From IMG/VR virus record IMGVR_UViG_3300028833_000071: 64,000 nucleotides of DNA; one strand, 5' to 3'. The stretch is from a virus. Its lineage: Duplodnaviria > Caudoviricetes. Below are positions 12,713 through 62,082 of the stretch, piece after piece. Every line of letters begins with the position of its first letter. Position 1 is the stretch's first letter. The notes under the pieces were generated by a model. It worked only from the letters and a program-made list of their open reading frames with translations, was not told the DNA's origin and ran no database searches. The position numbers and the translations under genes were made by a program.

Positions 12713-14029
12713 ATGGAAATTAAGACTTATTACGACATTTTAACTTATTTAAAAGAAGTTATCAAAGGTACTGAATATGAGGGCCATGTATTTTCTGTTG
12801 GAGGCTGTGAGCGAGATAAGCATCTTGGTTCAGATACCATCAAGGATATTGATATTGTTGTTGACCTTATGGATGGTGGAATTCGTTTCGCAAAGTGGCT
12901 TGAATCTAACGGACACACTAAAGGTTCCGTAGTTGTGTACGAGAACTTTGGCACAGCCATGTTCAAACTCAAGGAATTTCCTGACGAGGAAATTGAAACC
13001 GTACACACAAGAAAGGAAACCTACAGGGACAAGAACAGCCGTAACCCTGAGACTGCATTCGGAACAATCAATGACGATTGTTTCCGTAGGGACTTTACCA
13101 TCAACTCATTATACCACAACATTTCAAAGGATGAAGACCTTGACTTGACTGGTAGAGGCTTTGATGACCTTGAAAAAGGACTTATCTACACTTGCTCTTC
13201 TCCTGATTTAATCTTCACCGAGGACCCATTAAGGCAATTAAGAGCCGCAAGGTTTTCTGCAAAACTTGGTTTCCTTATTGATAATGATGTTTTTGAATCA
13301 ATGAAAAGGAACATTGAACGCCTTAAAATCATTTCTCAGGAACGAATCACCGATGAATTCAATAAGATTCTGATGTCTGGCCATCCATATATTGGATTGA
13401 GCTATCTTAATGACATTGGCTTTTTCGATACTATTACCCCGTACCTGTTCACTTATGAAAACGGAGAAAGAAATGAGGCCGCAAAGGAAGGTGCATTTGA
13501 ATCTGTATTGGAGATTGTTGAAAAATACAACTACGACCTTGAAACCGTTCTTGGTGCATTTGTCCAGAATTGGTATTGTGAAAGTAAGCAGAGAAATAAG
13601 TTCCTAAAGGAATTCAAGTACTCAAACGATACTATTAACAAAGTAAACTTCTATGCAATGAAAGCATTTCCTCTTGAACTTGCTTGTAAGTGGAAACTTG
13701 GAAGCAAAATCCGTGAGATTGCTTATGAATGCAACACGATTGAAGATTTCAGCCACATTGTTGCAATTGCAAAATCATTCCCAAGACTAAAAGACGGAAT
13801 CTGTGTATTTAATTTTCTCAAAACAATTGATATTGATGAAATGATTGGGTATAAACTCCCCGTCAATGGTGACGATATTATGGAAATTCGTGGCATAGGC
13901 CCATGTAAAGAAGTAAAAACAATAATTGACCATTTGCTCGAATGCGCATTCATGAATCCAAAAATCACAAGAGACGAATGCGTTGAAATAATAAAAAATG
14001 TTAAACTAAAAAATATTGTAGTAAAATGA
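12713..14029 (+). CDS. cca: CCA-adding tRNA nucleotidyltransferase (class II)
   Basis: VGGCERD, DIDIVV, RRDFTINSL, EDPLRQLRAARF, SQERITDEF. Confidence 0.88.
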   Translation: MEIKTYYDILTYLKEVIKGTEYEGHVFSVGGCERDKHLGSDTIKDIDIVVDLMDGGIRFAKWLESNGHTKGSVVVYENFGTAMFKLKEFPDEEIETVHTRKETYRDKNSRNPETAFGTINDDCFRRDFTINSLYHNISKDEDLDLTGRGFDDLEKGLIYTCSSPDLIFTEDPLRQLRAARFSAKLGFLIDNDVFESMKRNIERLKIISQERITDEFNKILMSGHPYIGLSYLNDIGFFDTITPYLFTYENGERNEAAKEGAFESVLEIVEKYNYDLETVLGAFVQNWYCESKQRNKFLKEFKYSNDTINKVNFYAMKAFPLELACKWKLGSKIREIAYECNTIEDFSHIVAIAKSFPRLKDGICVFNFLKTIDIDEMIGYKLPVNGDDIMEIRGIGPCKEVKTIIDHLLECAFMNPKITRDECVEIIKNVKLKNIVVK

Positions 14030-14601: not shown

Positions 14602-15415
14602 TTTTAAGTTCACGGAAGAGTATATCCAAAAGAAACTTGACGGATTCTTTGCTGATAGCACAAAGAAATATGTCATCGAAAATCTTTATGTTTTTAGTTG
14701 GGAATCCGACAAGCTGATTGAAACAAGGTCTGGACTTATATATGAATTTGAGATTAAGATAAGCAGGTCAGATTTCAAGAATGACTTCAAGAAAAAGGAC
14801 AGACATATCATACTTGAGGGCGGACAAACACATTTGCCAATATTTGAAACTTTAAATCCGATATACCAGAAAATGTACGAAAAGAATTATTTGGTCAGTA
14901 ATTTCAAAAAGCCTAATTACTTTTATTATGCGGTTCCTGAGGGCCTTATCACAGTAGATGAAGTACCTGAATACGCTGGCTTGATATATATTATTCCTGA
15001 TGACGGAGAATACCACTTTACATGGTTTCGGATTGCCAAGCAAGCGCCTAAATTGCACAATGTAAAATATTCAGACGATGACCTTAATCTTGGAGAAAAG
15101 TTCTATTACAATATGCTGTCATGGAAAGATAAGTTCCGTCAGGAAAGGGAAAAACAACTTCTTGCCGAAGGTGCTGACCAAAAAATGACATATGCTGAAT
15201 TGCTTGACAAATACAACAAATCAAAAAGAGAAATAAATGGCTACAAGGCCCTTATTAATCAATTAGACGAGCAAAAGAAACTCCATTTCGAGAATGAATT
15301 GAATGATAGGGAAATCATAAAAGCCTATAGAAAAAAAGTTAATGATTTTGACAAAAGTTTTAATCCCTTTGATTTTGAAAATAAAATAATTGAAGAATAT
15401 GAAAATTTGGCATAA
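14591..15415 (+). CDS. PD-(D/E)XK nuclease-like protein (MmcB-like)
   Basis: WESD..IYEFEIKISRSDFKND, PNYFYYAVP. Confidence 0.7.
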   Translation: MENNFKFTEEYIQKKLDGFFADSTKKYVIENLYVFSWESDKLIETRSGLIYEFEIKISRSDFKNDFKKKDRHIILEGGQTHLPIFETLNPIYQKMYEKNYLVSNFKKPNYFYYAVPEGLITVDEVPEYAGLIYIIPDDGEYHFTWFRIAKQAPKLHNVKYSDDDLNLGEKFYYNMLSWKDKFRQEREKQLLAEGADQKMTYAELLDKYNKSKREINGYKALINQLDEQKKLHFENELNDREIIKAYRKKVNDFDKSFNPFDFENKIIEEYENLA

Positions 15416-17571: not shown

Positions 17572-17640
17572 TTGTATATTTAGAATAGAGCAATTCATCC
17601 CCACCTGAAGGAAGGGGACTTCTTGCTTGATTAATTAAAA
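17572..17640 (-). mobile_element. IS200/IS605 left-end remnant with outward TTGTATATT promoter
   Basis: TTGTATATTTAG.ATAGAGCAATTCATCCC hairpin..TTCTTGCT matches 25002-25059. Confidence 0.8.
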
Positions 17641-23135: not shown

Positions 23136-23630
23136 ATGGAACCAAACATTAGTGAAGACATGATAAACGAGTTGCATCAGTTGACTGGCGCAGGCATGAT
23201 GCGGTGCAAGGAGTCACTATCTGCACTTGTAGAAGCGTTAAAGGCAAACATAAATAGACCGAGAAAAACGGACGTAGGATATAAAATTAAAATTGATTTT
23301 GAAGAATATCCTTTAAGGAAACCGCCAATAACACAGGCAGCGCCCAGCTTTATTAGATTTATTGGGGTGTGTGGTGATGAATTGCAACCATCATGCAAAC
23401 GAGAATGCACTTATTTTTCGTGCGATTACGAGTTTGGAGAACTTCCAGAGACTCTTAATAAAGTATATAATGCGTATCAAAAAGAAAATTTTAAGACATT
23501 TTCTGAACGAAATGATGATGTACTTACAGAATTAACAAGACAAATGTTTAAAGAGTTTGATGATTTCCTTAAGAAAGAATTTGGCAAAAAATTCGTTCAT
23601 ACGGAATATTTTACGACAACTTTTTCATAA
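23136..23630 (+). CDS. Protein with EF-Ts N-terminal (UBA-like) domain
   Basis: ISEDMINELHQLTGAGMMRCKESL resembles EF-Ts VKELRERTGAGMMDCKKAL. Confidence 0.65.
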   Translation: MEPNISEDMINELHQLTGAGMMRCKESLSALVEALKANINRPRKTDVGYKIKIDFEEYPLRKPPITQAAPSFIRFIGVCGDELQPSCKRECTYFSCDYEFGELPETLNKVYNAYQKENFKTFSERNDDVLTELTRQMFKEFDDFLKKEFGKKFVHTEYFTTTFS

Positions 23631-23640
23631 AAAAGTAAAG

Positions 23641-23661
23641 TTTGGCACAGTTTTTGTATAA
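23641..23661 (+). promoter_or_regulatory. sigma54-like promoter interrupted by IS insertion; also the TnpB guide-encoding flank
   Basis: TTTGGCACAGTTTTTGTATAA abuts IS right end. Confidence 0.7.
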
Positions 23662-25067
23662 CTGACATACTCCCACGATTGAAATCGTGGGGTTCTTAAT
23701 TTCTTAAGAACCTGTATTTATCAACAAGTTATTCTTGTTGACCACGCTTGACACATCAAGTGGCGCTGTCAGCAGCGCAAGGTGATTTTGTTCATATCGC
23801 TTCAATATGTTAATCGCAGCGTTTAAATCACGGTCTATTACTATGGAATCGGAAATCTGTACCGTCCTGTCGGACAGTCCAACCCTTTCCTCAAACAATT
23901 TGCCGGTCAGACAGTTTTGTTGTGTTGTCCATTTCTCGTTAATGGAAATAAGTTCAGTATTGCTGTTCTGACATTTGTATGACAAATATTCCATAAATGT
24001 GGCTATTGATGATTCACTGAAGTTGCGAGAATTCTTCGTTAACTTGTTGCTTCTCTTCTCCATCAGTGTCTTCACACTCAAGTCACCAACTACAATTGTC
24101 TTGTAGTTCATATTCACCAATTTCTTGCTCTGAATATGCAGAGTCTGTTTTATCTGTGCATTTTTCCTTTTATACAGTTTGTTCTTCACCTTCTTTAACT
24201 TGCAGTGACGGCTGCTGCCCTTTGTGCATTTATCCATTTTGGACTGAACTGACGATATCTGCTTGCGGAAATACTTGTTTATCCTTCTTGCTTTGTTCGG
24301 TATCGTGACAACATTGCCCAAATTATCGACACAGTTGCACAGGTTTTTAATGCCAAGGTCAATCGCAAGTACCTTGTTTTCAGTTGTCAACACCTCTTCT
24401 TCGTCAACATGGTTTGCTACACCTAAGTCAAGCAGATATTTTCCGTTGACCATCTTCAGTTTGACTTCCTTGACAGTTAAAGACTTGTAGTCAATATTCG
24501 GGATACCTTTATAAGTTACGGCAATACCATTTACTTTCAATGTGGTGTTATTTATGAATTTCCATCCCGATTGGTTGTACACAACAGTGTGAAATTTGTC
24601 AACATCGTTGATTTTATGGGGCGGTTTCGCTGTATGGTCTTTTTTAACCAAAGTGAAAAAAGACTTGTATGAGGAATAGATTTCCTTGGCAACCCTTTGG
24701 CTTGCCTTGGAGTTAAGGCAAGTTAAAAAGGGATTTTCTTTTCTGAGGAAGGTTATATCTCTGTCAAGGTCAAATTCGGTTTTTATCTTTCCTGTTGTTT
24801 CATAGGTTTGGTTTTCGATGTCGATAAGCAGGTTATACAAAAGGTTCCTTGCAAGGGACAGGTTTTTCAGTTCCTGCTCCTGCTGACCATTCGGGAAAAG
24901 TCTTAATGTATATGTCCTGTACTGTATCATCACTTATAAATAGTATAATTATTAAAAAAAGTCAAGAAATTAATAAAAAATTTTATTTATTTAATAAAAA
25001 AATTGTATATTTAGGATAGAGCAATTCATCCCACGACTAAAGTGGTGGGCTTTCTTGCTCGTTTATC
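23662..25067 (-). mobile_element. IS200/IS605-family element, tnpB only (IS1341-like)
   Basis: IS608-like ends on minus strand. LE: TTAC|14 nt-AAAG-hairpin. RE: GAAC-hairpin-AGTATGTCAG. Confidence 0.88.
23704..24933 (-). CDS. tnpB: TnpB RNA-guided endonuclease
   Basis: YTLRLFPN..Q N-terminus, LAIDLG, IVVGDL, INEKWTTQ, DRDLNAAINIL. Confidence 0.93.
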   Translation of the reverse strand: MMIQYRTYTLRLFPNGQQEQELKNLSLARNLLYNLLIDIENQTYETTGKIKTEFDLDRDITFLRKENPFLTCLNSKASQRVAKEIYSSYKSFFTLVKKDHTAKPPHKINDVDKFHTVVYNQSGWKFINNTTLKVNGIAVTYKGIPNIDYKSLTVKEVKLKMVNGKYLLDLGVANHVDEEEVLTTENKVLAIDLGIKNLCNCVDNLGNVVTIPNKARRINKYFRKQISSVQSKMDKCTKGSSRHCKLKKVKNKLYKRKNAQIKQTLHIQSKKLVNMNYKTIVVGDLSVKTLMEKRSNKLTKNSRNFSESSIATFMEYLSYKCQNSNTELISINEKWTTQQNCLTGKLFEERVGLSDRTVQISDSIVIDRDLNAAINILKRYEQNHLALLTAPLDVSSVVNKNNLLINTGS

Positions 25068-25103
25068 GTAAAAGAAATAGAAATTAATTAAAATTTAAAA
25101 AAC

Positions 25104-31012: not shown

Positions 31013-31387
31013 ATGAAAGACCTAAAAGAGCCAATAGAATTATTTGGATATGAGTGTGGTAAAGGGTGGTTTCCTTATATTAAGGAGGCACAGGATTTAA
31101 TGGATGAGTACAACAAAGAACATCCTGACGAAGAAGAGGTGAAGTTTACACAGGTAAAAGAAAAATTCGGTACATTATGTTTATACTTAAACAGATATCC
31201 TGATGATTTTAGCGATAAAATATGGGAAATCGAGAAGAAAAGTTATGATACATGTGAATTTTGTGGTGCAAAGGGTGCTACTAATAAAGCAACACACGGA
31301 TGGTATATGACATTATGTGATAAATGCCGTCAGGAAGAAATTGTAAATTACAATAAAAGGTTTAATATTGATAACAATGGAAAATAA
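31013..31387 (+). CDS. Conserved phage protein with Zn-ribbon
   Basis: ECGKGW, QVKEKFGTL, CEFCG..GW..TLC. Confidence 0.75.
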   Translation: MKDLKEPIELFGYECGKGWFPYIKEAQDLMDEYNKEHPDEEEVKFTQVKEKFGTLCLYLNRYPDDFSDKIWEIEKKSYDTCEFCGAKGATNKATHGWYMTLCDKCRQEEIVNYNKRFNIDNNGK

Positions 31388-32483
31388 AATATGTGTCTAT
31401 GCTATTTGCAAAAATGAATCAAAGTTTGTTGAGCAATGGTATAAGAGTATGTCAGAAGCTGATAGCATTGTTGTTCTTGACACAGGTTCAACCGATGATA
31501 CTGTTGAAAAATTAAAAAAATTAGGTGTTAAAGTTGAACAAAAAATAATTGAACCGTGGGGATTTGGCGATGCAAGAAACGAATCAATGAAACTTATTCC
31601 TGACGACTGTAACATATTGGTTTGTACTGATTTAGATGAATATTTTGAAGAAGGATGGGCAAAACCATTGAGGGAAAAATGGGTCGAAGGCGTACATAAC
31701 AGATGTGTTTATACATATTATATACGACCAGACCATTTTATTTATTATGATAAAATCCATGGCCGTAATTATTATTGGAAATACCCGATACACGAAATGC
31801 TTTGCTGTGATAAAAGTGTTGGCTTAACGACTTTATATTTGCAAAATGAGATTGTTTTACACCACGATAGAGATGCTTCAAAAAGCAGAGAAAGTTATCT
31901 TAGATTGCTTGAACGTAGGGTTAAAGAAAATGAAAATGATTTTATTGGGATAATTTATCTTGTTGGTGAATATCAAGCAGTTGGAAGACACGAAGATGTT
32001 TTGTCCCTATTGGAAACAGTTGACCTTGATAAATGTGATAATGACCTTTATAGACTATCCATCGCAAAAATAAAAGCAGAAACATTATTACATTTTGGGC
32101 GTACAAAAGATTGTATTGGATGGATTAATTATTGTATGCGTATTAATAAATCATACCGAGAATTATATTATCTTTTGGCTAAATGTTTTGAGGAAAATAA
32201 TGACCTTATGTATTATACATTATTAAAAGGTATAGAAAATTCCACATATCATCAGGATTGGTTTGAGAAGGAATATTTGTGGAAAGGTGGTATGTACTAT
32301 GATTTATTGTCTTTAACTGCATATTATTCTGGGCATATAGCTGAAAGTTTGATTTATGCAGGAATGGCTTTAAAAATTGAACCTAATAATGATAGATATA
32401 AGCAAAATATCAATTCAATAATTAATAATTTAAGTGAAGAAGAAATAATAAAATATAGGCAAAATATCAAAGATGGAAAATAA
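31377..32483 (+). CDS. GT2 glycosyltransferase with TPR-like C-terminus
   Basis: ICKNE, DTGSTD, ARN, DLDE. Confidence 0.88.
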   Translation: MENKICVYAICKNESKFVEQWYKSMSEADSIVVLDTGSTDDTVEKLKKLGVKVEQKIIEPWGFGDARNESMKLIPDDCNILVCTDLDEYFEEGWAKPLREKWVEGVHNRCVYTYYIRPDHFIYYDKIHGRNYYWKYPIHEMLCCDKSVGLTTLYLQNEIVLHHDRDASKSRESYLRLLERRVKENENDFIGIIYLVGEYQAVGRHEDVLSLLETVDLDKCDNDLYRLSIAKIKAETLLHFGRTKDCIGWINYCMRINKSYRELYYLLAKCFEENNDLMYYTLLKGIENSTYHQDWFEKEYLWKGGMYYDLLSLTAYYSGHIAESLIYAGMALKIEPNNDRYKQNINSIINNLSEEEIIKYRQNIKDGK

Positions 32484-33612
32484 AATATGCGTTTATGCTA
32501 TTTGTAAAAACGAGTCACAATTCGTTGAGAAATGGGCCAAAAGTATGTTAGAGGCCGATAGCGTTGTTGTTCTTGATACAGGTTCAACTGATGATACAGT
32601 TGAAAGATTGAAAAGTTTTGGTATAACTGTTGAACAGAAAATAATTGAACCATGGCGTTTTGATGTGGCAAGAAATGAATCAATGAAACTAATACCCGAT
32701 GATTGCAACATATTAGTTTGCACTGATTTAGACGAAATATTAGAGCCAGGATGGGCTAAAGTTCTTAGGGAAAGATGGATTGACGGCGTTCATAAAAGAT
32801 GTTGGTATAAATATGTTTGGAGCCATATGCCCGATGGAAGTAATGGTAGAATATTTTGGTATAATAAAATCCATGTTAAAGGTTATGAATGGCAATATCC
32901 TGTTCATGAATTATTGACTCTTATACCAGGTTATGAGAAAAAAGTTGACGGGCTTAAAGACTTATATATTGATGAAGACGGTTTTAAACTCCATCATTAT
33001 CCTGCACCCAAGACAAGCAGAAGTACTTATTTACCGCTTTTAGAATTAAGAGTTAAAGAATACCCATTGGATGTTTCAGGATGGCATTATTTAACACATC
33101 AATATTTTTATGAGGCCAAATATGAAAATTGTATTGAATGCGGTAAGAAAACGCTCGAATTATTTGATAAAGAATTAACTCCAATTGACAAGTCCAATCT
33201 GTGTTTATTTATCGGTTATTCATATAAAGCATTGAAGCTATATGAAGAGGCTTTGCAATGGTTTTATAAAGGTATTACCGAAGATAAAACTTATATAGAA
33301 AATTATCTTGAAGTCGCTGATTTATATTTATTTAGTATTGATAAAAAAGATAAATACGATTTAGCATATAATATATTGAAAAAATGTTTTAAAAACAGTT
33401 ATAGGCATTACTCTTGGCTGGAAAAAGATGACTCATTTACTTATAGGCCGTATGATTTATTATCAATTGCTGCATATTATTCAGGCAAAAAGCAAGAATC
33501 ATTATATTATGCATTCTTGGCAAGAGAAAATAATAAAGCAGATAAACGTCTTGAAGATAATGTTAATATTATTATGGAAAATTTGGGGAAAAATAATAAT
33601 TTTATTTTATAA
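32473..33612 (+). CDS. GT2 glycosyltransferase with TPR-like C-terminus (tandem paralog)
   Basis: Same motifs; N-terminal about 100 aa nearly identical to upstream gene. Confidence 0.88.
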   Translation: MENKICVYAICKNESQFVEKWAKSMLEADSVVVLDTGSTDDTVERLKSFGITVEQKIIEPWRFDVARNESMKLIPDDCNILVCTDLDEILEPGWAKVLRERWIDGVHKRCWYKYVWSHMPDGSNGRIFWYNKIHVKGYEWQYPVHELLTLIPGYEKKVDGLKDLYIDEDGFKLHHYPAPKTSRSTYLPLLELRVKEYPLDVSGWHYLTHQYFYEAKYENCIECGKKTLELFDKELTPIDKSNLCLFIGYSYKALKLYEEALQWFYKGITEDKTYIENYLEVADLYLFSIDKKDKYDLAYNILKKCFKNSYRHYSWLEKDDSFTYRPYDLLSIAAYYSGKKQESLYYAFLARENNKADKRLEDNVNIIMENLGKNNNFIL

Positions 33613-35680: not shown

Positions 35681-35931
35681 GCGTTTTTAAAAGTTGGGTA
35701 ATAGAATGCTATTGTTGTGGTGATATACGATTTAGCACTACATTTAACGGGCTTTGTAAATATCATACTGTTTATAAGAAAAAAAGTATAAACCCGCTTG
35801 CAGACGAACTGGCGGGTTTTGACAAAATGCCCAAATATATCGGTTTTTGCAACGATGAATGTGCTGATAAATATTTCACTGAAATTGAACCAAGAGATAA
35901 AGCATTTTACAAGAAAATCATAAAACAATGA
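35677..35931 (+). CDS. Small Cys-rich protein
   Basis: Coupled ORF. Confidence 0.55.
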   Translation: MSVFKSWVIECYCCGDIRFSTTFNGLCKYHTVYKKKSINPLADELAGFDKMPKYIGFCNDECADKYFTEIEPRDKAFYKKIIKQ

Positions 35932-36212
35932 TTAACGAAGAAAAAATATTAGGAAAACTAATAACAGAGGAATTAGGCGTTTTAGATGAAGTTGGTAATT
36001 GGACTAATAAAATTGCAAATGATTTTATTTTAAATTGCCCTAAGGAAACCCAAGAAATTGCTGAACATATATATTTTAAATCATCAAAATGGCTTAAAAG
36101 AATTGTATCAATGTCATTGAAATCTTGTAGGAGACAATTAAGCCGTGCCATTGCAAAAGTCAGAAAAGATTATGATTATACCCATGGCGGAAATACTTCG
36201 GTTACAGTTTAA
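35928..36212 (+). CDS. Hypothetical protein
   Basis: Coupled ORF. Confidence 0.55.
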   Translation: MINEEKILGKLITEELGVLDEVGNWTNKIANDFILNCPKETQEIAEHIYFKSSKWLKRIVSMSLKSCRRQLSRAIAKVRKDYDYTHGGNTSVTV

Positions 36213-36293
36213 TAAATAAAAAAAAAGGGAACTATATACTTGATGGCACAGGATTTTGAACAATAGGAAAATATTTGTGGTATAACTATTTAT

Positions 36294-36587
36294 GATTCGG
36301 CTGCGGGAAAACCCACTTCTTTAGATGTGGGATGAAAGCAGCCTTAACAAAATATTTTGTTTTTTCAAATATTTTTAGTATATTTGTACAGAAGTTCCGA
36401 GTTAGGGATAGTACTAACTACCACCAAGGGGTTTGCCTTGCAGAGATGGAAATGCATCTCAAAAAAATGGGGACAGAGAAGGACTATCTCTGTGTGGAGT
36501 TAAAGTAAGTGGTTGCACTATGCTTCCCCAAGCACTTCGGTGCTATGCTCCCAAGAACCCCACTATTTCAATAGTGGGAGTAGTCAG
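36294..36587 (+). mobile_element. Non-autonomous IS605-type element encoding only an omegaRNA-like RNA
   Basis: TTAT|14 nt-AAAA-hairpin LE; GAAC-hairpin-AGTAGTCAG RE; removal restores ACTATTTAT-AAGG. Confidence 0.8.
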
Positions 36588-36607
36588 AAGGAAACAGATG
36601 TTATGAA
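36392..36607 (+). ncRNA. Stand-alone TnpB omegaRNA-like RNA plus flanking guide
   Basis: Homologous to 61895-62062 with compensatory changes; GACTAT/GTAGTC pseudoknot potential; promoter motif at 36377. Confidence 0.7.
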
Positions 36608-37478
36608 ACAAGAAATAATAAAACTAAATAAAAATAATTTAGTAAATATTGTATGCAAAAGTATAAGACAAATCATTAATGAATCAAATTGTTTGAAATA
36701 TAATATTGACATTTCTAAAATTGACATTGGAGATTTAAAAAAGGCTTATAAAGATTTTAGACTTGTACCAACACAAGCGTGTTTTGATGATGTATTATAT
36801 AGGCCAACAACAATCAAAGAAGCTTTTGGTGATATTTTGCAACCAGACGATGTTGTTAACAAAATAATCAATAAATATGGCATACCATCAAGTTGTGTTC
36901 TTAAAAGAGAAGCTTACAATAAAATCTACATATATGTTGTCACGGCAGTAATTGGGATTAATGATAAACTTATAGAAAATGATATGTCAAAGATGGGTTA
37001 TTATTTGGGATTCAAAGGAAATATTCAGGATGTAGGTGGAATGCAATTTCAAACGCTTCAATTTGAACCATCAAGTCAATTACAGGATGATGAAACAGAA
37101 AACATAAAGTCAGCTTATAATATATTATATCATTGGACACCATCTTATTCATTAGATGGAATTATGCAAAATGGTTTAATACCAAGCAGTAAAAACAAAG
37201 TGTTTAATTATCCACCGAGAACATATTTAATGAAAGGAGATTGTAGTGATAGATATATATTAGGGTTGGGACAATCTTTATGCTCTTCAAATGATAACCC
37301 CAATAATAATGGTGAATATGCCTTGTTAGCAATAAATATTGAGAATATTGATGACGACATTAGATTCTATTACGATTCAAATAGTGAAATGGGAATATAT
37401 ACAGAGCAACCAATAGCCAAAGATAGAATTAAAATAATGAATACAGTGCAATTTGTAAAAAACATTAAAAATCAATAA
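36603..37478 (+). CDS. Helix-tagged protein with ADP-ribosyltransferase-like C-terminal domain
   Basis: N-terminal IIKLNKNNLVNIVCKSIRQIINES; LYHWT..IMQNGL..RTYL..YYD..IYT pattern. Confidence 0.6.
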   Translation: MKQEIIKLNKNNLVNIVCKSIRQIINESNCLKYNIDISKIDIGDLKKAYKDFRLVPTQACFDDVLYRPTTIKEAFGDILQPDDVVNKIINKYGIPSSCVLKREAYNKIYIYVVTAVIGINDKLIENDMSKMGYYLGFKGNIQDVGGMQFQTLQFEPSSQLQDDETENIKSAYNILYHWTPSYSLDGIMQNGLIPSSKNKVFNYPPRTYLMKGDCSDRYILGLGQSLCSSNDNPNNNGEYALLAINIENIDDDIRFYYDSNSEMGIYTEQPIAKDRIKIMNTVQFVKNIKNQ

Positions 37479-38834: not shown

Positions 38835-39206
38835 ATGCAATTATTTTTGTTACTTTATTTCATTAGTCTTGTTTTGGATTTTTCATTCCAAACGCCTTTT
38901 ATGTCAGAGCACAAATCTAAAAATGATTATGTACTTTTTGTCCATTGTGCCATATGGGGACTTGGTATATGGTTTGCATTGATACCTTTTGGTATGTTTG
39001 CATGGTGGAAATTAATAATGCTGGTCGGTGGCCATTTTCTTATCGACAGGTGGAAATGCCGTGAACATTATAAGTTATGGCCCATGAAAAAAACTTCTTT
39101 GCCTTATGGCGAAGGTTTTAAAAAAGAACCAATGATTTCTGATTGGATGTCATTATATATTGACCAAACATTGCATGTTATACAAATTTTATTATGCTTA
39201 ATATAA
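38835..39206 (+). CDS. DUF3307-like membrane protein
   Basis: DFSFQT, H..IW, HFLID..K, DQTLH. Confidence 0.75.
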   Translation: MQLFLLLYFISLVLDFSFQTPFMSEHKSKNDYVLFVHCAIWGLGIWFALIPFGMFAWWKLIMLVGGHFLIDRWKCREHYKLWPMKKTSLPYGEGFKKEPMISDWMSLYIDQTLHVIQILLCLI

Positions 39207-39230
39207 CAATGGTTTGAATTAACTGAATAA

Positions 39231-39247
39231 TTTGGCACGGTTTTTGT
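39231..39247 (+). promoter_or_regulatory. sigma54-like motif
   Basis: TTTGGCACG-GTTT-TTGT. Confidence 0.7.
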
Positions 39248-39262
39248 AATAACCATTTTGAA

Positions 39263-39312
39263 GTGAACTACCCCTCCCTAAAGTGAGGGGCTTCTTGCTT
39301 GATTAATTAAAA
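39263..39312 (-). mobile_element. Single-hairpin IS605-end mini-element
   Basis: GTGAACTACCCC hairpin GGGG + CTTCTTGCTTGATTAATTAAAA (tail identical to 17619-17640). Confidence 0.7.
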
Positions 39313-45262: not shown

Positions 45263-45859
45263 ATGACTAAAAAAATAATGTTTTCAGATAGATTTGGCCT
45301 TACCGCTGCCGTGCTGAGTGGAAAAAAGACCATGACGAGAAGAGTAATTACCAATAAAAATGCACTTGATTCATTATATGAGCAAGAATATATGAAACAA
45401 TTGTGCATAGATTATTCATTTCTAGAAAAATATTCACGTTATCAAATCGGGGAAGTGATTGCTATTGCACAGTCTTATAAAGATTTGGGTTTTAGCGGTA
45501 ATGAAGTATATAGAGACCCTAAGACAAATGAAAGCAAAGGTAATTTATTAAATTCTCCTGCATGGAATAACAAGATGTTTGTAAGAGCAGAAGCCTGTAA
45601 ACATCATATCCGCATTACCAATATACGAATAGAACGTTTACAAGATATTACTGACGAAGATTGTTTGAGAGAAGGTATTTTAAAGCGCGAAATTCGACCT
45701 TTTAATACAATAGAGATTAAATACCAAGTACCTCTAACCACCATTTATAAAGATACACCACGCGAGGCTTTTGCTAATTTAATTGATAAAGTTTCTAAAA
45801 AAGGTACATGGAACTCTAATTCATTCGTTTTTGTTTATGAATTTGAATTAGTTGACTAA
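45263..45859 (+). CDS. ASCH/PUA-like phage protein
   Basis: AVLSGKKTMTRR, IERLQDITDEDCLREG, FVFVYEFEL. Confidence 0.75.
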   Translation: MTKKIMFSDRFGLTAAVLSGKKTMTRRVITNKNALDSLYEQEYMKQLCIDYSFLEKYSRYQIGEVIAIAQSYKDLGFSGNEVYRDPKTNESKGNLLNSPAWNNKMFVRAEACKHHIRITNIRIERLQDITDEDCLREGILKREIRPFNTIEIKYQVPLTTIYKDTPREAFANLIDKVSKKGTWNSNSFVFVYEFELVD

Positions 45860-45880
45860 TTTTTTCTCCCCATTTTATAG

Positions 45881-45897
45881 TTTGGCACGGTTTTTGA
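45881..45897 (+). promoter_or_regulatory. sigma54-like motif
   Basis: TTTGGCACG-GTTT-TTGA; identical copies at 46319, 49124, 50996. Confidence 0.75.
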
Positions 45898-48975: not shown

Positions 48976-49175
48976 TCCATTTAATACTAATATAGCAATG
49001 AGTATGTTTTCAACATTGCTTGCACTTCAAACATTATATTTGATTGACAAGCACAAAAAAGAAGAAGAGGAAGAAGACAACAAAGAAAAAGACGATGATG
49101 ATTTTTTCTAATCCATAAAAAAGTTTGGCACGGTTTTTGATGTATATTGTTGTGTAAATTTTAATTTATCATATT

Positions 49176-50907: not shown

Positions 50908-50967
50908 CTGACATACTCCCACGATTGAAATCGTGGGGTTCTTAACTTTTTTAAGAACTTGTATTTG
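50908..50967 (-). mobile_element. Solo right end of the tnpB element
   Basis: CTGACATACTCCCACGATTGAAATCGTGGGGTTCTTAA identical to 23662-23699, similarity continues about 20 nt. Confidence 0.85.
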
Positions 50968-51045
50968 TAAAAAATGGTTTGAGATACTTGAATAGTTTGG
51001 CACGGTTTTTGATAGGCTAAAAGTAGAATATTAAAAATTAAAATT

Positions 51046-61439: not shown

Positions 61440-61841
61440 ATGGAAAAAATATATATTTTAGAAGAAGAAAATTTACAAGAAAATTCTTGTTCAAATGTGG
61501 GTGATAAAATGAATTTTGTTAATCAATACATACATATACAAGAACTGAATGCACAAAAACGATTGATTGATAGTATTCTTGAAGATTATAAAAAGGAAGT
61601 TGTACGAATAATGACAAGTGAAGATTCTATGACAACTGAAGATTATCATTATCTTTTTACACTTAAGGAAGTTAAAAATTATCTATTAAGAGAGCGGCTT
61701 TCGATAAACAACTCTCTTTCGGAATGGAATACATTTGATAAATGTACATTAAACCAAATCATTGATTATATTAACTCATTCAAAAACGATTCTATAATTC
61801 AATGCGAAGAGAAAAGTCTCAAACCACAATTAAACCTTTAA
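61440..61841 (+). CDS. Hypothetical protein
   Basis: ORF. Confidence 0.55.
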   Translation: MEKIYILEEENLQENSCSNVGDKMNFVNQYIHIQELNAQKRLIDSILEDYKKEVVRIMTSEDSMTTEDYHYLFTLKEVKNYLLRERLSINNSLSEWNTFDKCTLNQIIDYINSFKNDSIIQCEEKSLKPQLNL

Positions 61842-62082
61842 CAAAATATTTTGTTTTTGGGGAATATTTTTGTATATTAATGGTAGAAAATCAAAGTTCC
61901 GGGTTGGGGACAGTACCAACTGCCAAGGTGGGGCTTGCCACCATTGGGACAGGGGTGGACTACTCCTGTGTGGAGTTAAAGTAAACGAATGGGCTATGCT
62001 TCCCAAAAGCACAATGTGCTTGCTCCCAAGGACCCCACGATTTTAACTGTGGGAGTAGTCAGGGCCAATATCTTGACCCACA
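61838..62082 (+). ncRNA. Second stand-alone omegaRNA-like locus (promoter, scaffold, RE, guide), no left end
   Basis: TTAACAAAATATTTTGTTTTT + TTGTATATT, scaffold homologous to 36392-36587, ends GGGAGTAGTCAG at 62062. Confidence 0.7.

What the first reader, a model, noticed from the sequence alone, without database searches (positions are those of the whole stretch)
36294..36607. Protein-free IS605-type element that is only a promoter plus omegaRNA
Seen: a 294-bp element with IS608-like left-end geometry (TTAT|14 nt-AAAA-hairpin) and right end GAAC-hairpin-AGTAGTCAG. It contains a phage-type promoter (TAGTATATTTG) and about 195 nt of structured RNA, but no real ORF. Removing it restores ACTATTTAT-AAGGAAAC, so it inserted at the late promoter using its TTAT. 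The predicted guide is AAGGAAACAGATGTTATGAA. Inference: a non-autonomous element expressing its own guide RNA for a TnpB supplied in trans.
Basis: partly seen in the sequence, partly recalled or inferred. Interest (0 to 1): 0.75.

Follow-up and report, generated by a model that had tools for sequence, protein, structure and literature searches.

The report
Gene-less guide-RNA mini-transposon in phage
The flagged 294 bases are a protein-less miniature of an IS608-type jumping gene in a large rumen or gut phage. It keeps only its two hairpin ends, a promoter and a conserved folded RNA built like a TnpB guide RNA, which is an already described kind of element, though no nuclease gene carrying this RNA scaffold was found.

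Summary
Window 36294-36587 is a 294-bp element with IS608-like ends. It lies 3' of TTAT, with AAAA in front of the left hairpin, GAAC in front of the right hairpin, and the end ...AGTAGTCAG. The same end design flanks an intact tnpB element at 23662-25067(-) in this window.

I found 13 distinct copies of its RNA in rumen phage and metagenome contigs. All 8 copies with a left end sit 3' of TTAT, in unrelated flanks. All 8 carry a Bacteroidota-type promoter (TTTG-N19-TAnnTTTG) reading towards the right end.

The last ~124 nt fold into a structure with 13 base pairs that change on both sides across copies. Its layout mirrors the ISDra2 TnpB omegaRNA: a terminal hairpin with its tetraloop at -21..-18, and a 5' loop complementary to -8..-3.

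It is a PATE-type, omegaRNA-only IS200/IS605 element. This kind is already noted by Meers et al. 2023, and this scan has found it repeatedly in other phages.

One point remains unresolved. The scaffold matches no tnpB 3' end found. The window's own TnpB uses TTAC rather than TTAT, has a different scaffold, and has Gly at the RuvC-II Glu. The partner nuclease is therefore unidentified. Interest is moderate to low.

The parts
36290..36293 (+). TTAT target/TAM-like tetranucleotide in the left flank. It is the last 4 nt of the late-promoter-like motif ACTATTTAT (36285-36293).
   Evidence: All 8 copies that have a left end are preceded by TTAT.
36294..36587 (+). Whole mini-element (PATE copy A), 294 bp.
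   Evidence: Boundaries come from comparing copies in unrelated flanks.
36294..36343 (+). Left end: 14 nt, then the guide tetranucleotide AAAA (36308-36311), then the inner hairpin 36312-36331, nested in the outer stem 36299-36304 / 36338-36343.
   Evidence: It is 89-93% identical to left ends in G001 and G002. The design matches the tnpB element's left end.
36356..36386 (+). Promoter TTTG-N19-TAtaTTTG (Bacteroidota sigma-A type) facing the right end.
   Evidence: It is conserved in the other copies.
36393..36587 (+). Predicted structured RNA (omegaRNA-like scaffold). The 5' start is inferred from the promoter. The variable 5' domain is about 36393-36462.
   Evidence: Two 5'-domain variants exist among the copies.
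36463..36587 (+). Conserved 3' module of the RNA: closing stem P1, hairpins a, b and c, and the right-end hairpin. A candidate pseudoknot pairs loop GACUAU (-106..-101) with GUAGUC (-8..-3).
36555..36587 (+). Right end: guide tetranucleotide GAAC, hairpin 36559-36578, 9-nt tail ending in the cleavage site TCAG.
   Evidence: It is 93% complementary to the right ends at 23668-23697 and 50914-50943.
36588..36607 (+). Predicted guide (flank read by the RNA). It overlaps the RBS and start codon (36603) of the downstream 291-aa gene.
   Evidence: Position only. No second match in the window.
61838..62062 (+). Copy B: promoter, RNA and right end, but no left-end hairpin. The predicted guide is 62063-62082.
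23662..25067 (-). Sister IS605-type element carrying tnpB (23704-24933, 409 aa). It has left flank TTAC, guide AAAG, and right end ...GTATGTCAG.
50908..50961 (-). Solo right end of the tnpB-type element.

Best explanation
Window 36294-36587 is a PATE-type (palindrome-associated, protein-less) member of an IS608-like group of IS200/IS605 elements that circulates in rumen/gut phages.

Shown:
- It has the single-strand-transposon end design: subterminal hairpins, a 4-nt guide 5' of each hairpin that matches the cleavage tetranucleotide, and insertion 3' of TTAT without duplication.
- It carries a host-type promoter.
- It carries a ~195-nt RNA whose 3' 124 nt are conserved in structure across 13 copies.

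Inferred:
- The promoter transcribes the RNA through the right end into the flank. This would give a TnpB-type omegaRNA whose guide is the ~16-20 nt after ...GTCAG (AAGGAAACAGATGTTA...).
- A TnpB made elsewhere loads this RNA. Candidates are a TTAT-type TnpB of a co-infecting phage or of the host, or less likely the window's own TTAC-type TnpB.
- The loaded TnpB cuts genomes that have the uninterrupted site TTAT+guide, that is the intact late promoter-gene junction.
- Recombinational repair then copies the cassette in (homing), or restores it after excision.
- A Y1 TnpA supplied in trans would account for jumps to new TTAT sites. Copies that lost the left end (copy B and others) could still spread by homing alone.
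- Because it landed between the late motif and the RBS of the 291-aa gene, its own outward-reading promoter or read-through probably keeps that gene expressed.
For: Ends:
- Left end: TTAT | 14 nt | AAAA | hairpin. Right end: GAAC | hairpin | 9 nt ending TCAG.
- IS608 has its left cleavage site CL 19 nt from the left hairpin foot and its right cleavage site CR 10 nt after the right hairpin foot, each read by 4-nt guides placed 5' of the hairpins, with left guide GL = AAAG for TTAC (PMC3201880). Here the distances are 18 and 9 nt.
- Guide and cleavage site change together across three sister element types. PATE and TnpB2-type elements have AAAA with TTAT. TnpB1-type elements have AAAG with TTAC. 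The right ends pair GAAC with TCAG (PATE, TnpB1) and GAAG with TCAC (TnpB2).

Mobility:
- There are 13 distinct copies. 8 have left ends, all 3' of TTAT, and the flanks are unrelated. 11 of the 13 copies end AGTAGTCAG; L099 ends AGTAGTTAG and L087 AGAAGTCAG.
- Two diverged orthologues of the downstream gene lack the element. One of them has an uninterrupted ...TTATTTAT 16 nt before its ATG.

RNA:
- RNAalifold gives 12 of 35 pairs with compensatory changes in 6 sequences.
- On 13 copies, 97.1% of cells are paired, against 35-51% when partners are slid. 13 pairs change on both sides, and 0 of 500 shuffles reach this.
- The ORFs are not conserved.

Likeness to an omegaRNA:
- The promoter faces the right end and the RNA abuts the element boundary.
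- The terminal 8-bp hairpin has a UUUA/UUCA tetraloop at -21..-18. ISDra2 has a UUUA tetraloop at -20..-17.
- The loop of the 5' hairpin (-106..-101) is complementary to -8..-3. The ISDra2 pseudoknot pairs -105..-103 with -5..-3.
- A 4-bp GGAG/CUCC long-range pair sits just 5' of the terminal hairpin, like ISDra2 stem 2.

Promoter: TTTG-N19-TAnnTTTG is kept in the copies.

Precedent: PATEs 'often encode omegaRNAs' to be used in trans (PMC10055086). Homing into co-infecting phage genomes is discussed in PMC13565253.
Against: - No tnpB gene with this scaffold was found. All real copies in IMG/VR and JGI metagenomes lack an adjacent tnpB. There were none in GTDB species genomes.
- The 3' ends of TnpB1 and TnpB2 match the RNA model only over the right-end hairpin, at 17-27 bits.
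- No TnpB tail matches the pseudo-translation, and no coding relic is detectable.
- The candidate pseudoknot and the GGAG/CUCC pair are invariant or vary on one side only, so covariation does not test them. GGAG/CUCC would also cross the well-supported stem P1.
- The right-end hairpin is needed by TnpA in any case, so sharing it says little about TnpB.
- Complete 33-38 kb phages (G002, G006) carry the RNA but no TnpB.
- The window's TnpB1 has TTAC rather than TTAT, a different scaffold of five serial hairpins, and Gly at the canonical RuvC-II Glu.
- No Y1 transposase was found in the window or in four related phage records.
- No transcript data exist.
Confidence: 0.6

Rival explanations
1. It is a PATE whose RNA cargo works without TnpB. 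The RNA could be a phage or element regulatory RNA, an RNA decoy that soaks up TnpB or another protein, or simply the structured leader of a mobile promoter cassette that drives the gene downstream of each insertion.
For: - There is no cognate tnpB anywhere (57/58, 65, 92).
- Complete small phages without any TnpB keep one or two copies.
- 5 of 13 copies lack the left end yet keep the RNA with compensatory changes.
- Several copies lie just upstream of co-oriented gene starts.
- Both tnpB element types also carry internal promoters.
Against: - The RNA always abuts the right end in the omegaRNA orientation.
- Its last ~30 nt, and the loop-to-tail complementarity, reproduce the TnpB/Cas12 guide-RNA plan at almost the same nucleotide positions.
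- Rfam has no alternative family for it.
- A promoter cassette would not need 124 nt of covarying structure.
Confidence: 0.2
2. The RNA is a trans-acting extra guide for the window's own TnpB (23704-24933). The phage TnpB then serves three or more guides: its own, copy A and copy B.
For: - The TnpB and two RNA copies sit in the same genome.
- The right-end hairpin and tail are 87-93% alike.
- Both RNAs have a 5' hairpin loop complementary to their own tail: GACUAC with GUAGUC here, and CUGACA with UGUCAG in TnpB1.
- TnpB1 relatives are very abundant on large phage contigs.
Against: - The target motif differs (TTAC versus TTAT).
- The scaffold architecture differs: five serial hairpins versus a multi-branch fold.
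- The model match is limited to the end hairpin.
- TnpB1 has Gly at the RuvC-II Glu, so its nuclease activity is uncertain.
- G004 has TnpB1 but no such RNA, and G002, G006 and G003 have the RNA but no TnpB1.
Confidence: 0.15
3. It is an inert decay product of a tnpB element that is no longer expressed or used.
For: No TnpA or cognate TnpB was found. Some copies lack the left end.
Against: - 13 pairs keep pairing through changes on both sides across 13 copies.
- Copies A and B in one genome are only 77% identical yet preserve every helix.
- The promoter is conserved.
- No coding relic remains.
Confidence: 0.05

Closest known systems
PATE-like minimal IS200/IS605 elements that encode omegaRNAs (Geobacillus stearothermophilus ISGst families; Meers et al. 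2023, PMC10055086)
   Same: Both keep left and right ends with TnpA-type hairpins and have no protein gene. Both retain a right-end guide-RNA region that must be used in trans by a TnpB encoded elsewhere. Both share ends with full-length tnpB elements in the same genome.
   Different: - Here the host replicon is a phage.
- The element carries a dedicated, conserved host-type promoter.
- The RNA body is not recognisably the scaffold of any tnpB element found with it. Only the last ~35 nt are shared.
- Its left end resembles one tnpB lineage (TTAT/AAAA) and its right end another (GAAC/TCAG).
IS608 of Helicobacter pylori (IS200/IS605 family; He et al. 2011, PMC3201880)
   Same: Both have subterminal hairpins and insert 3' of a tetranucleotide (TTAC in IS608; TTAC in the window's tnpB element; TTAT here). 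In both, 4-nt guides 5' of the hairpins match the cleavage sites. The spacings are 18-19 nt at the left and 9-10 nt at the right.
   Different: There is no tnpA and no tnpB. The cleavage sites are TTAT/TCAG instead of TTAC/TCAA, with matching changes in the guides.
ISDra2 TnpB omegaRNA (Nakagawa et al. 2023, PMC10097598)
   Same: - The scaffold before the guide is about 116-120 nt.
- A terminal stem carries a UUUA-type tetraloop about 20 nt from the guide.
- A 5' stem-loop has a loop complementary to the nucleotides just before the guide (pseudoknot).
- A short long-range helix lies 5' of the terminal stem.
   Different: There is no sequence similarity. An extra covarying closing stem (P1) is present, and the middle part is two hairpins instead of one stem 3. 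The RNA does not overlap a tnpB ORF. Protein binding is untested.
Earlier notes of this scan on phage omegaRNA-only minis (e.g. e1-5482605 in a 355-kb rumen phage; e1-5688275 in a cattle-gut phage)
   Same: They describe the same kind of object: ends, a promoter and a scaffold, with no protein, in large phages.
   Different: Those notes report that the scaffold matches a tnpB elsewhere in the same phage, which is not the case here. I did not check those notes.

Membership tests
IS200/IS605 family, IS608-like, non-autonomous (PATE) | Subterminal imperfect-palindrome hairpins at both ends, related to those of full-length elements. | tested here: met
   Hairpins lie at 36312-36331 and 36559-36578. 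The same design occurs in the tnpB element 23662-25067 and in TnpB2-type elements of related phages.
IS200/IS605 family, IS608-like, non-autonomous (PATE) | Insertion 3' of a conserved tetranucleotide, with no target duplication and no terminal inverted repeats. | tested here: met
   TTAT precedes all 8 copies that have a left end. The right flanks are unrelated and no duplication is seen.
IS200/IS605 family, IS608-like, non-autonomous (PATE) | 4-nt guides 5' of each hairpin match the cleavage sites, with IS608-like spacing. | tested here: met
   The observed pairs are AAAA/TTAT, AAAG/TTAC, GAAC/TCAG and GAAG/TCAC, and they change together across the three element types. Spacings are 18 and 9 nt, against 19 and 10 nt in IS608.
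IS200/IS605 family, IS608-like, non-autonomous (PATE) | No protein-coding gene inside. | tested here: met
   The internal ORFs of 58 aa or less are interrupted in the homologues. There is no similarity to TnpB proteins.
IS200/IS605 family, IS608-like, non-autonomous (PATE) | Mobilised by a Y1 (HUH) TnpA supplied in trans. | not testable with these tools
   There is no Y1_Tnp in four related phage records and no HUH-type ORF in the window by motif scan. The host genome is unknown.
IS200/IS605 family, IS608-like, non-autonomous (PATE) | An empty site exists in a near-identical genome. | tested here: inconclusive
   All near-identical contigs are filled, with the same 391-nt spacer. The exact empty junctions were not found in IMG/VR. 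Two diverged orthologous genes lack the element.
TnpB omegaRNA (right-end guide RNA) | Lies at the right end, is transcribed towards it, and its scaffold ends at the element boundary so that the flank supplies the guide. | tested here: met
   The promoter at 36356-36386 faces the right end. The conserved structure runs to -1, and there is no T-run terminator after the hairpin. The transcript itself was not observed.
TnpB omegaRNA (right-end guide RNA) | Conserved secondary structure. | tested here: met
   13 pairs change on both sides, 97% of cells are paired, and 0 of 500 shuffles reach this.
TnpB omegaRNA (right-end guide RNA) | Pseudoknot between a 5' stem-loop and the nucleotides just 5' of the guide (conserved in TnpB/Cas12 guide RNAs). 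| tested here: inconclusive
   GACUAY at -106..-101 is complementary to GUAGUC at -8..-3, and 94% of cells are paired. There are no changes on both sides.
TnpB omegaRNA (right-end guide RNA) | The scaffold is homologous to the 3' end or downstream region of a tnpB gene. | tested here: not met
   Only the right-end hairpin is shared with the TnpB1 and TnpB2 elements. There was no tnpB-linked copy in IMG/VR, JGI metagenomes or GTDB genomes by pattern plus model. No matching TnpB tail was found.
TnpB omegaRNA (right-end guide RNA) | Bound by TnpB and directs cleavage next to the TAM. | not testable with these tools
   This needs biochemistry or genetics.

The most novel reading that the evidence does not exclude
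This RNA family may be a free-living guide-RNA parasite with no tnpB of its own anywhere. It would be a promoter-plus-scaffold cassette that moves among unrelated rumen phages, from 33-kb phages to T4-like phages of more than 160 kb. It would borrow whatever compatible TnpB is present in a co-infected cell. It would persist even after losing its left end, because RNA-guided homing alone copies it. Alternatively, the scaffold may have been taken over for a TnpB-independent role.
Probability: 0.2. Interest if true: 0.6.

Novelty: new member of a known kind. Interest (0 to 1): 0.38.

Why it matters
This is a clean natural example of how IS200/IS605 elements can shrink to 'ends + promoter + guide RNA' and still spread. 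Here they do so among phages, where late promoters ending in TTAT offer ready-made target sites. The guide/cleavage-site changes across three sister element types are a tidy natural confirmation of the IS608 base-pairing rule. The one open point with wider interest is the orphan scaffold. If the RNA works with a TnpB whose own scaffold is different, TnpB-RNA pairing would be looser than assumed. That bears on how tracrRNA-like, separately encoded guide RNAs of Cas12 systems could have arisen.

Tried and rejected
- Rfam (gathering threshold on the whole window; E up to 10 on 35900-37000): no family. tRNA/tmRNA scan: none.
- blastn of the element against INPHARED phages: no match.
- Whole-genome searches of the window's own genome: not possible, because no genome is held.
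- Search for a cognate tnpB, all negative beyond the end hairpin:
  - model R1 on TnpB1, TnpB2 and other TnpB loci;
  - pattern scans of the viral, metagenome and genome collections (the 6 genome hits were chance);
  - pseudo-translation of the RNA against 5.8 billion proteins;
  - blastp of the three-frame translations against five TnpB-locus ORFs, of which two (G004_c, G004_d) were short spurious ORFs, so three were real TnpBs.
- A TnpB-like gene 7.8 kb from the copy in L088 has no left end and is cut off by the end of the locus, and I could not extend the record.
- Empty sites: near-identical contigs are all filled. The exact junction searches for copy A and for the G002 copy found nothing.
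- The copy B guide gave only chance 18-mer hits in unrelated GC-rich phages with no TTAT.
- Second targets of the guides inside the window: none.
- A sample of 401 Bacteroidota genomes had no right end of the TnpB1 type. The pattern I used there does not match the PATE tail, so that search says nothing about the PATE itself.
- I first thought the stretch TGGAG..AGTAAG shared with the TnpB2 3' end showed homology. The model search with filters off did not support this.

Full report
**What is there.** The window is AT-rich (~30% GC) phage DNA. At 36290-36293 lies TTAT, the end of the motif ACTATTTAT. From G36294 the sequence reads as follows:
- 14 nt, then AAAA, then a hairpin CCCAC-N10-GTGGG (36312-36331) nested in an outer stem (36299-36304 / 36338-36343);
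- a promoter TTTG-N19-TATATTTG (36356-36386);
- about 195 nt that are GC-richer than the surroundings (0.40-0.45 against ~0.30);
- GAAC, a second hairpin (36559-36578) and the tail AGTAGTCAG, ending at 36587.

The downstream 291-aa gene starts at 36603.

**It is one of a family, and the family has IS608-type ends.** The repeat search found three related sequences in the window:
- a second copy at 61838-62062, 77% identical, which keeps the promoter, RNA and right end but has no left hairpin;
- two reverse-strand copies of the right-end hairpin, one closing an intact 409-aa tnpB gene (23704-24933; Pfam OrfB_IS605, Cas12f1-like TNB and HTH domains);
- and the other hairpin copy standing alone at 50908-50961.

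The tnpB element has the same nested left-end hairpin.

Three sister element types can be compared:
- the protein-less element;
- the window's TnpB1 type, also seen in L065 and L066;
- a TnpB2 type found in related phages (27% identical protein), seen in L081 and L113-L115.

Across these types, the 4 nt in front of each hairpin and the cleavage tetranucleotide change together. At the left end the pairs are AAAA with flank TTAT (PATE, TnpB2) and AAAG with TTAC (TnpB1; the same pair as IS608). At the right end they are GAAC with end TCAG (PATE, TnpB1) and GAAG with TCAC (TnpB2).

The spacings are 18 nt at the left and 9-10 nt at the right. IS608 has 19 and 10 nt, and its cleavage sites are read by base pairing with such guides (PMC3201880). 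This is strong sequence evidence that all three types are substrates of a Y1 TnpA-type single-strand transposase.

I found no such transposase in the window (motif scan) or in four related phage records. Mobilisation must therefore come from outside.

**Mobility.** Pattern scans followed by a covariance model (R1) recovered 13 distinct copies of the RNA. They lie in IMG/VR records of 302 kb, 195 kb, 38 kb and 33 kb, and in rumen-type JGI or ENA metagenome contigs.
- Eight copies have the left end. All eight are preceded by TTAT.
- Eleven of the 13 end AGTAGTCAG. L099 ends AGTAGTTAG and L087 ends AGAAGTCAG.
- The flanks are unrelated.

At the window's own locus, every near-identical contig is filled, and I found no exact empty junction. 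Two diverged orthologues of the downstream gene lack the element. One of them carries an uninterrupted ...TTATTTAT 16 nt before its ATG, which is the geometry that excision of the element would restore here.

**The RNA is real.** With six copies, RNAalifold predicts 35 pairs, 12 of them with compensatory changes. On an independent MAFFT alignment of 13 copies:
- a structure of five nested helices plus two candidate tertiary pairings is 97.1% paired, against 35-51% when partners are slid by 1-3 columns;
- 13 pairs change on both sides, and 0 of 500 shuffles reach the observed values.

The ORFs inside are not conserved, and translations show no relic of TnpB. The 5' domain comes in a short form (copies A and B) and a long form. 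The promoter is kept in almost all copies.

**Is it an omegaRNA?** The evidence in favour is as follows.
- The RNA sits exactly where a TnpB guide RNA sits. It is transcribed towards the right end, and its conserved structure runs to the last base of the element.
- Counted from that base, its layout parallels the ISDra2 omegaRNA solved by cryo-EM (PMC10097598).
- The terminal 8-bp hairpin is at -29..-10 with a UUCA/UUUA tetraloop at -21..-18. ISDra2 has a UUUA tetraloop at -20..-17.
- The loop of the 5' hairpin, GACUAY at -106..-101, is complementary to GUAGUC at -8..-3. The ISDra2 pseudoknot pairs -105..-103 with -5..-3.
- GGAG (-92..-89) can pair with CUCC (-40..-37) just 5' of the terminal hairpin, like ISDra2 stem 2.

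I tested it, and it is compatible (94% paired) but varies on one side only, so covariation neither supports nor refutes it.

The evidence against is as follows.
- Beyond the right-end hairpin, the RNA has no detectable similarity to the 3' ends of TnpB1 or TnpB2 (17-27 bits).
- TnpB1's own right-end RNA is a row of five hairpins with its own covariation.
- None of the copies found in the viral and metagenome collections has a tnpB next to it.
- The GTDB genome scan gave only chance hits.
- No TnpB in the 5.8-billion-protein set has a tail like the RNA's reading frame.
- Rfam has no family for the RNA.

**Who would supply the nuclease?** The window's TnpB1 aligns end to end with ISDra2 TnpB (E = 3e-10). 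However, it has Gly where the RuvC-II Glu should be, its element targets TTAC, and its scaffold differs. The protein-less element shares its left end and TTAT target with TnpB2-type elements, which I saw only in other phages (G001). Complete small phages (G002, G006) carry the RNA with no TnpB at all. The partner is therefore unidentified. A TTAT-type TnpB from a co-infecting phage or the host is my best guess, and the phage's own TnpB1 is a weaker one.

**Comparison with what is known.** Meers et al. [quoted passage not shown] Copying of such elements into co-infecting phage genomes by cleavage of the empty site is discussed as 'non-restorative homing' (PMC13565253). This scan has also recorded several phage examples of omegaRNA-only minis (not checked by me). 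The present element is another member of that kind. Its particular features are:
- a conserved host-type promoter;
- a left end of one lineage and a right end of another;
- five of 13 copies without a left end but with an intact RNA;
- a scaffold with no known tnpB parent.

**Verdict.**
- Observation: confirmed.
- Interpretation: partly supported. The element and the RNA are real and guide-RNA-like, but use by a TnpB is inferred and no supplier is identified.
- Novelty: a new member of a known kind.
- Interest: moderate to low. The orphan scaffold is the only point worth a bench test.

Noticed in passing
window 23615-23656, 39205-39246, 45855-45896, 49098-49139, 50970-51011 (and 42421, 46319): A repeated intergenic motif TTTGGCAC(G/A)GTTTTTGATA fits the sigma-54 type consensus TGGCAC-N5-TTGC/A. 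A second family, TTTGGCATAATTTTTGTATATT, occurs at 15380, 47854, 53007 and other sites. These are probably phage promoter classes. The tnpB element's right flank (23641-23661) is one of them, split by the insertion.
   Followed up: no
window 23704-24933 (-): The TnpB has Gly (VVGDLS) at the position that aligns with the RuvC-II catalytic Glu of ISDra2-type TnpB. RuvC-I (IDLG) and RuvC-III (DRDLNAA) are intact. More than 1100 relatives occur in metagenomes, many on 150-400 kb contigs.
   Followed up: partly
window 24935-24943 (-) and L081 ~1474-1482: Both tnpB types carry the late-promoter-like motif ACTATTTAT just upstream of their start codon, inside the element. The transposon genes therefore look wired to phage late transcription.
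   Followed up: no
window 17599-17640 and 39271-39312: Two further left-end-like units, CCCC(A/T)C..GGGG-CTTCTTGCTTGATTAATTAAAA, resemble the plus-strand reading of the tnpB element's left end (25031-25072). They may be solo ends of a related IS605-type element.
   Followed up: no
L047 (G003:48900-49200, minus) and L045:1241-1300 (G001): RNA copies in two related phages lie directly after tRNA-like or tmRNA-like sequences (T-arm GGTTCGAATCC; ...GGAGTTCGACTCTCC...ACCA). In G001 a truncated TnpB1 right end abuts such a fragment.
   Followed up: no
L088:13025-13783: A third TnpB-like gene (33% identical to TnpB2) lies 7.8 kb from a mini-element in a 34.8-kb metagenome contig. It has no recognisable left end upstream, and its 3' end lies beyond the fetched locus.
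   Followed up: partly
window 31368-32483 and 32473-33612: Two tandem paralogous family-2 glycosyltransferase genes, with their first 300 nt 80% identical.
   Followed up: no
window 12713-14029: A gene of the poly(A) polymerase / CCA-adding enzyme family (PolyA_pol head plus RNA-binding domain), although no tRNA genes were found in the window.
   Followed up: no
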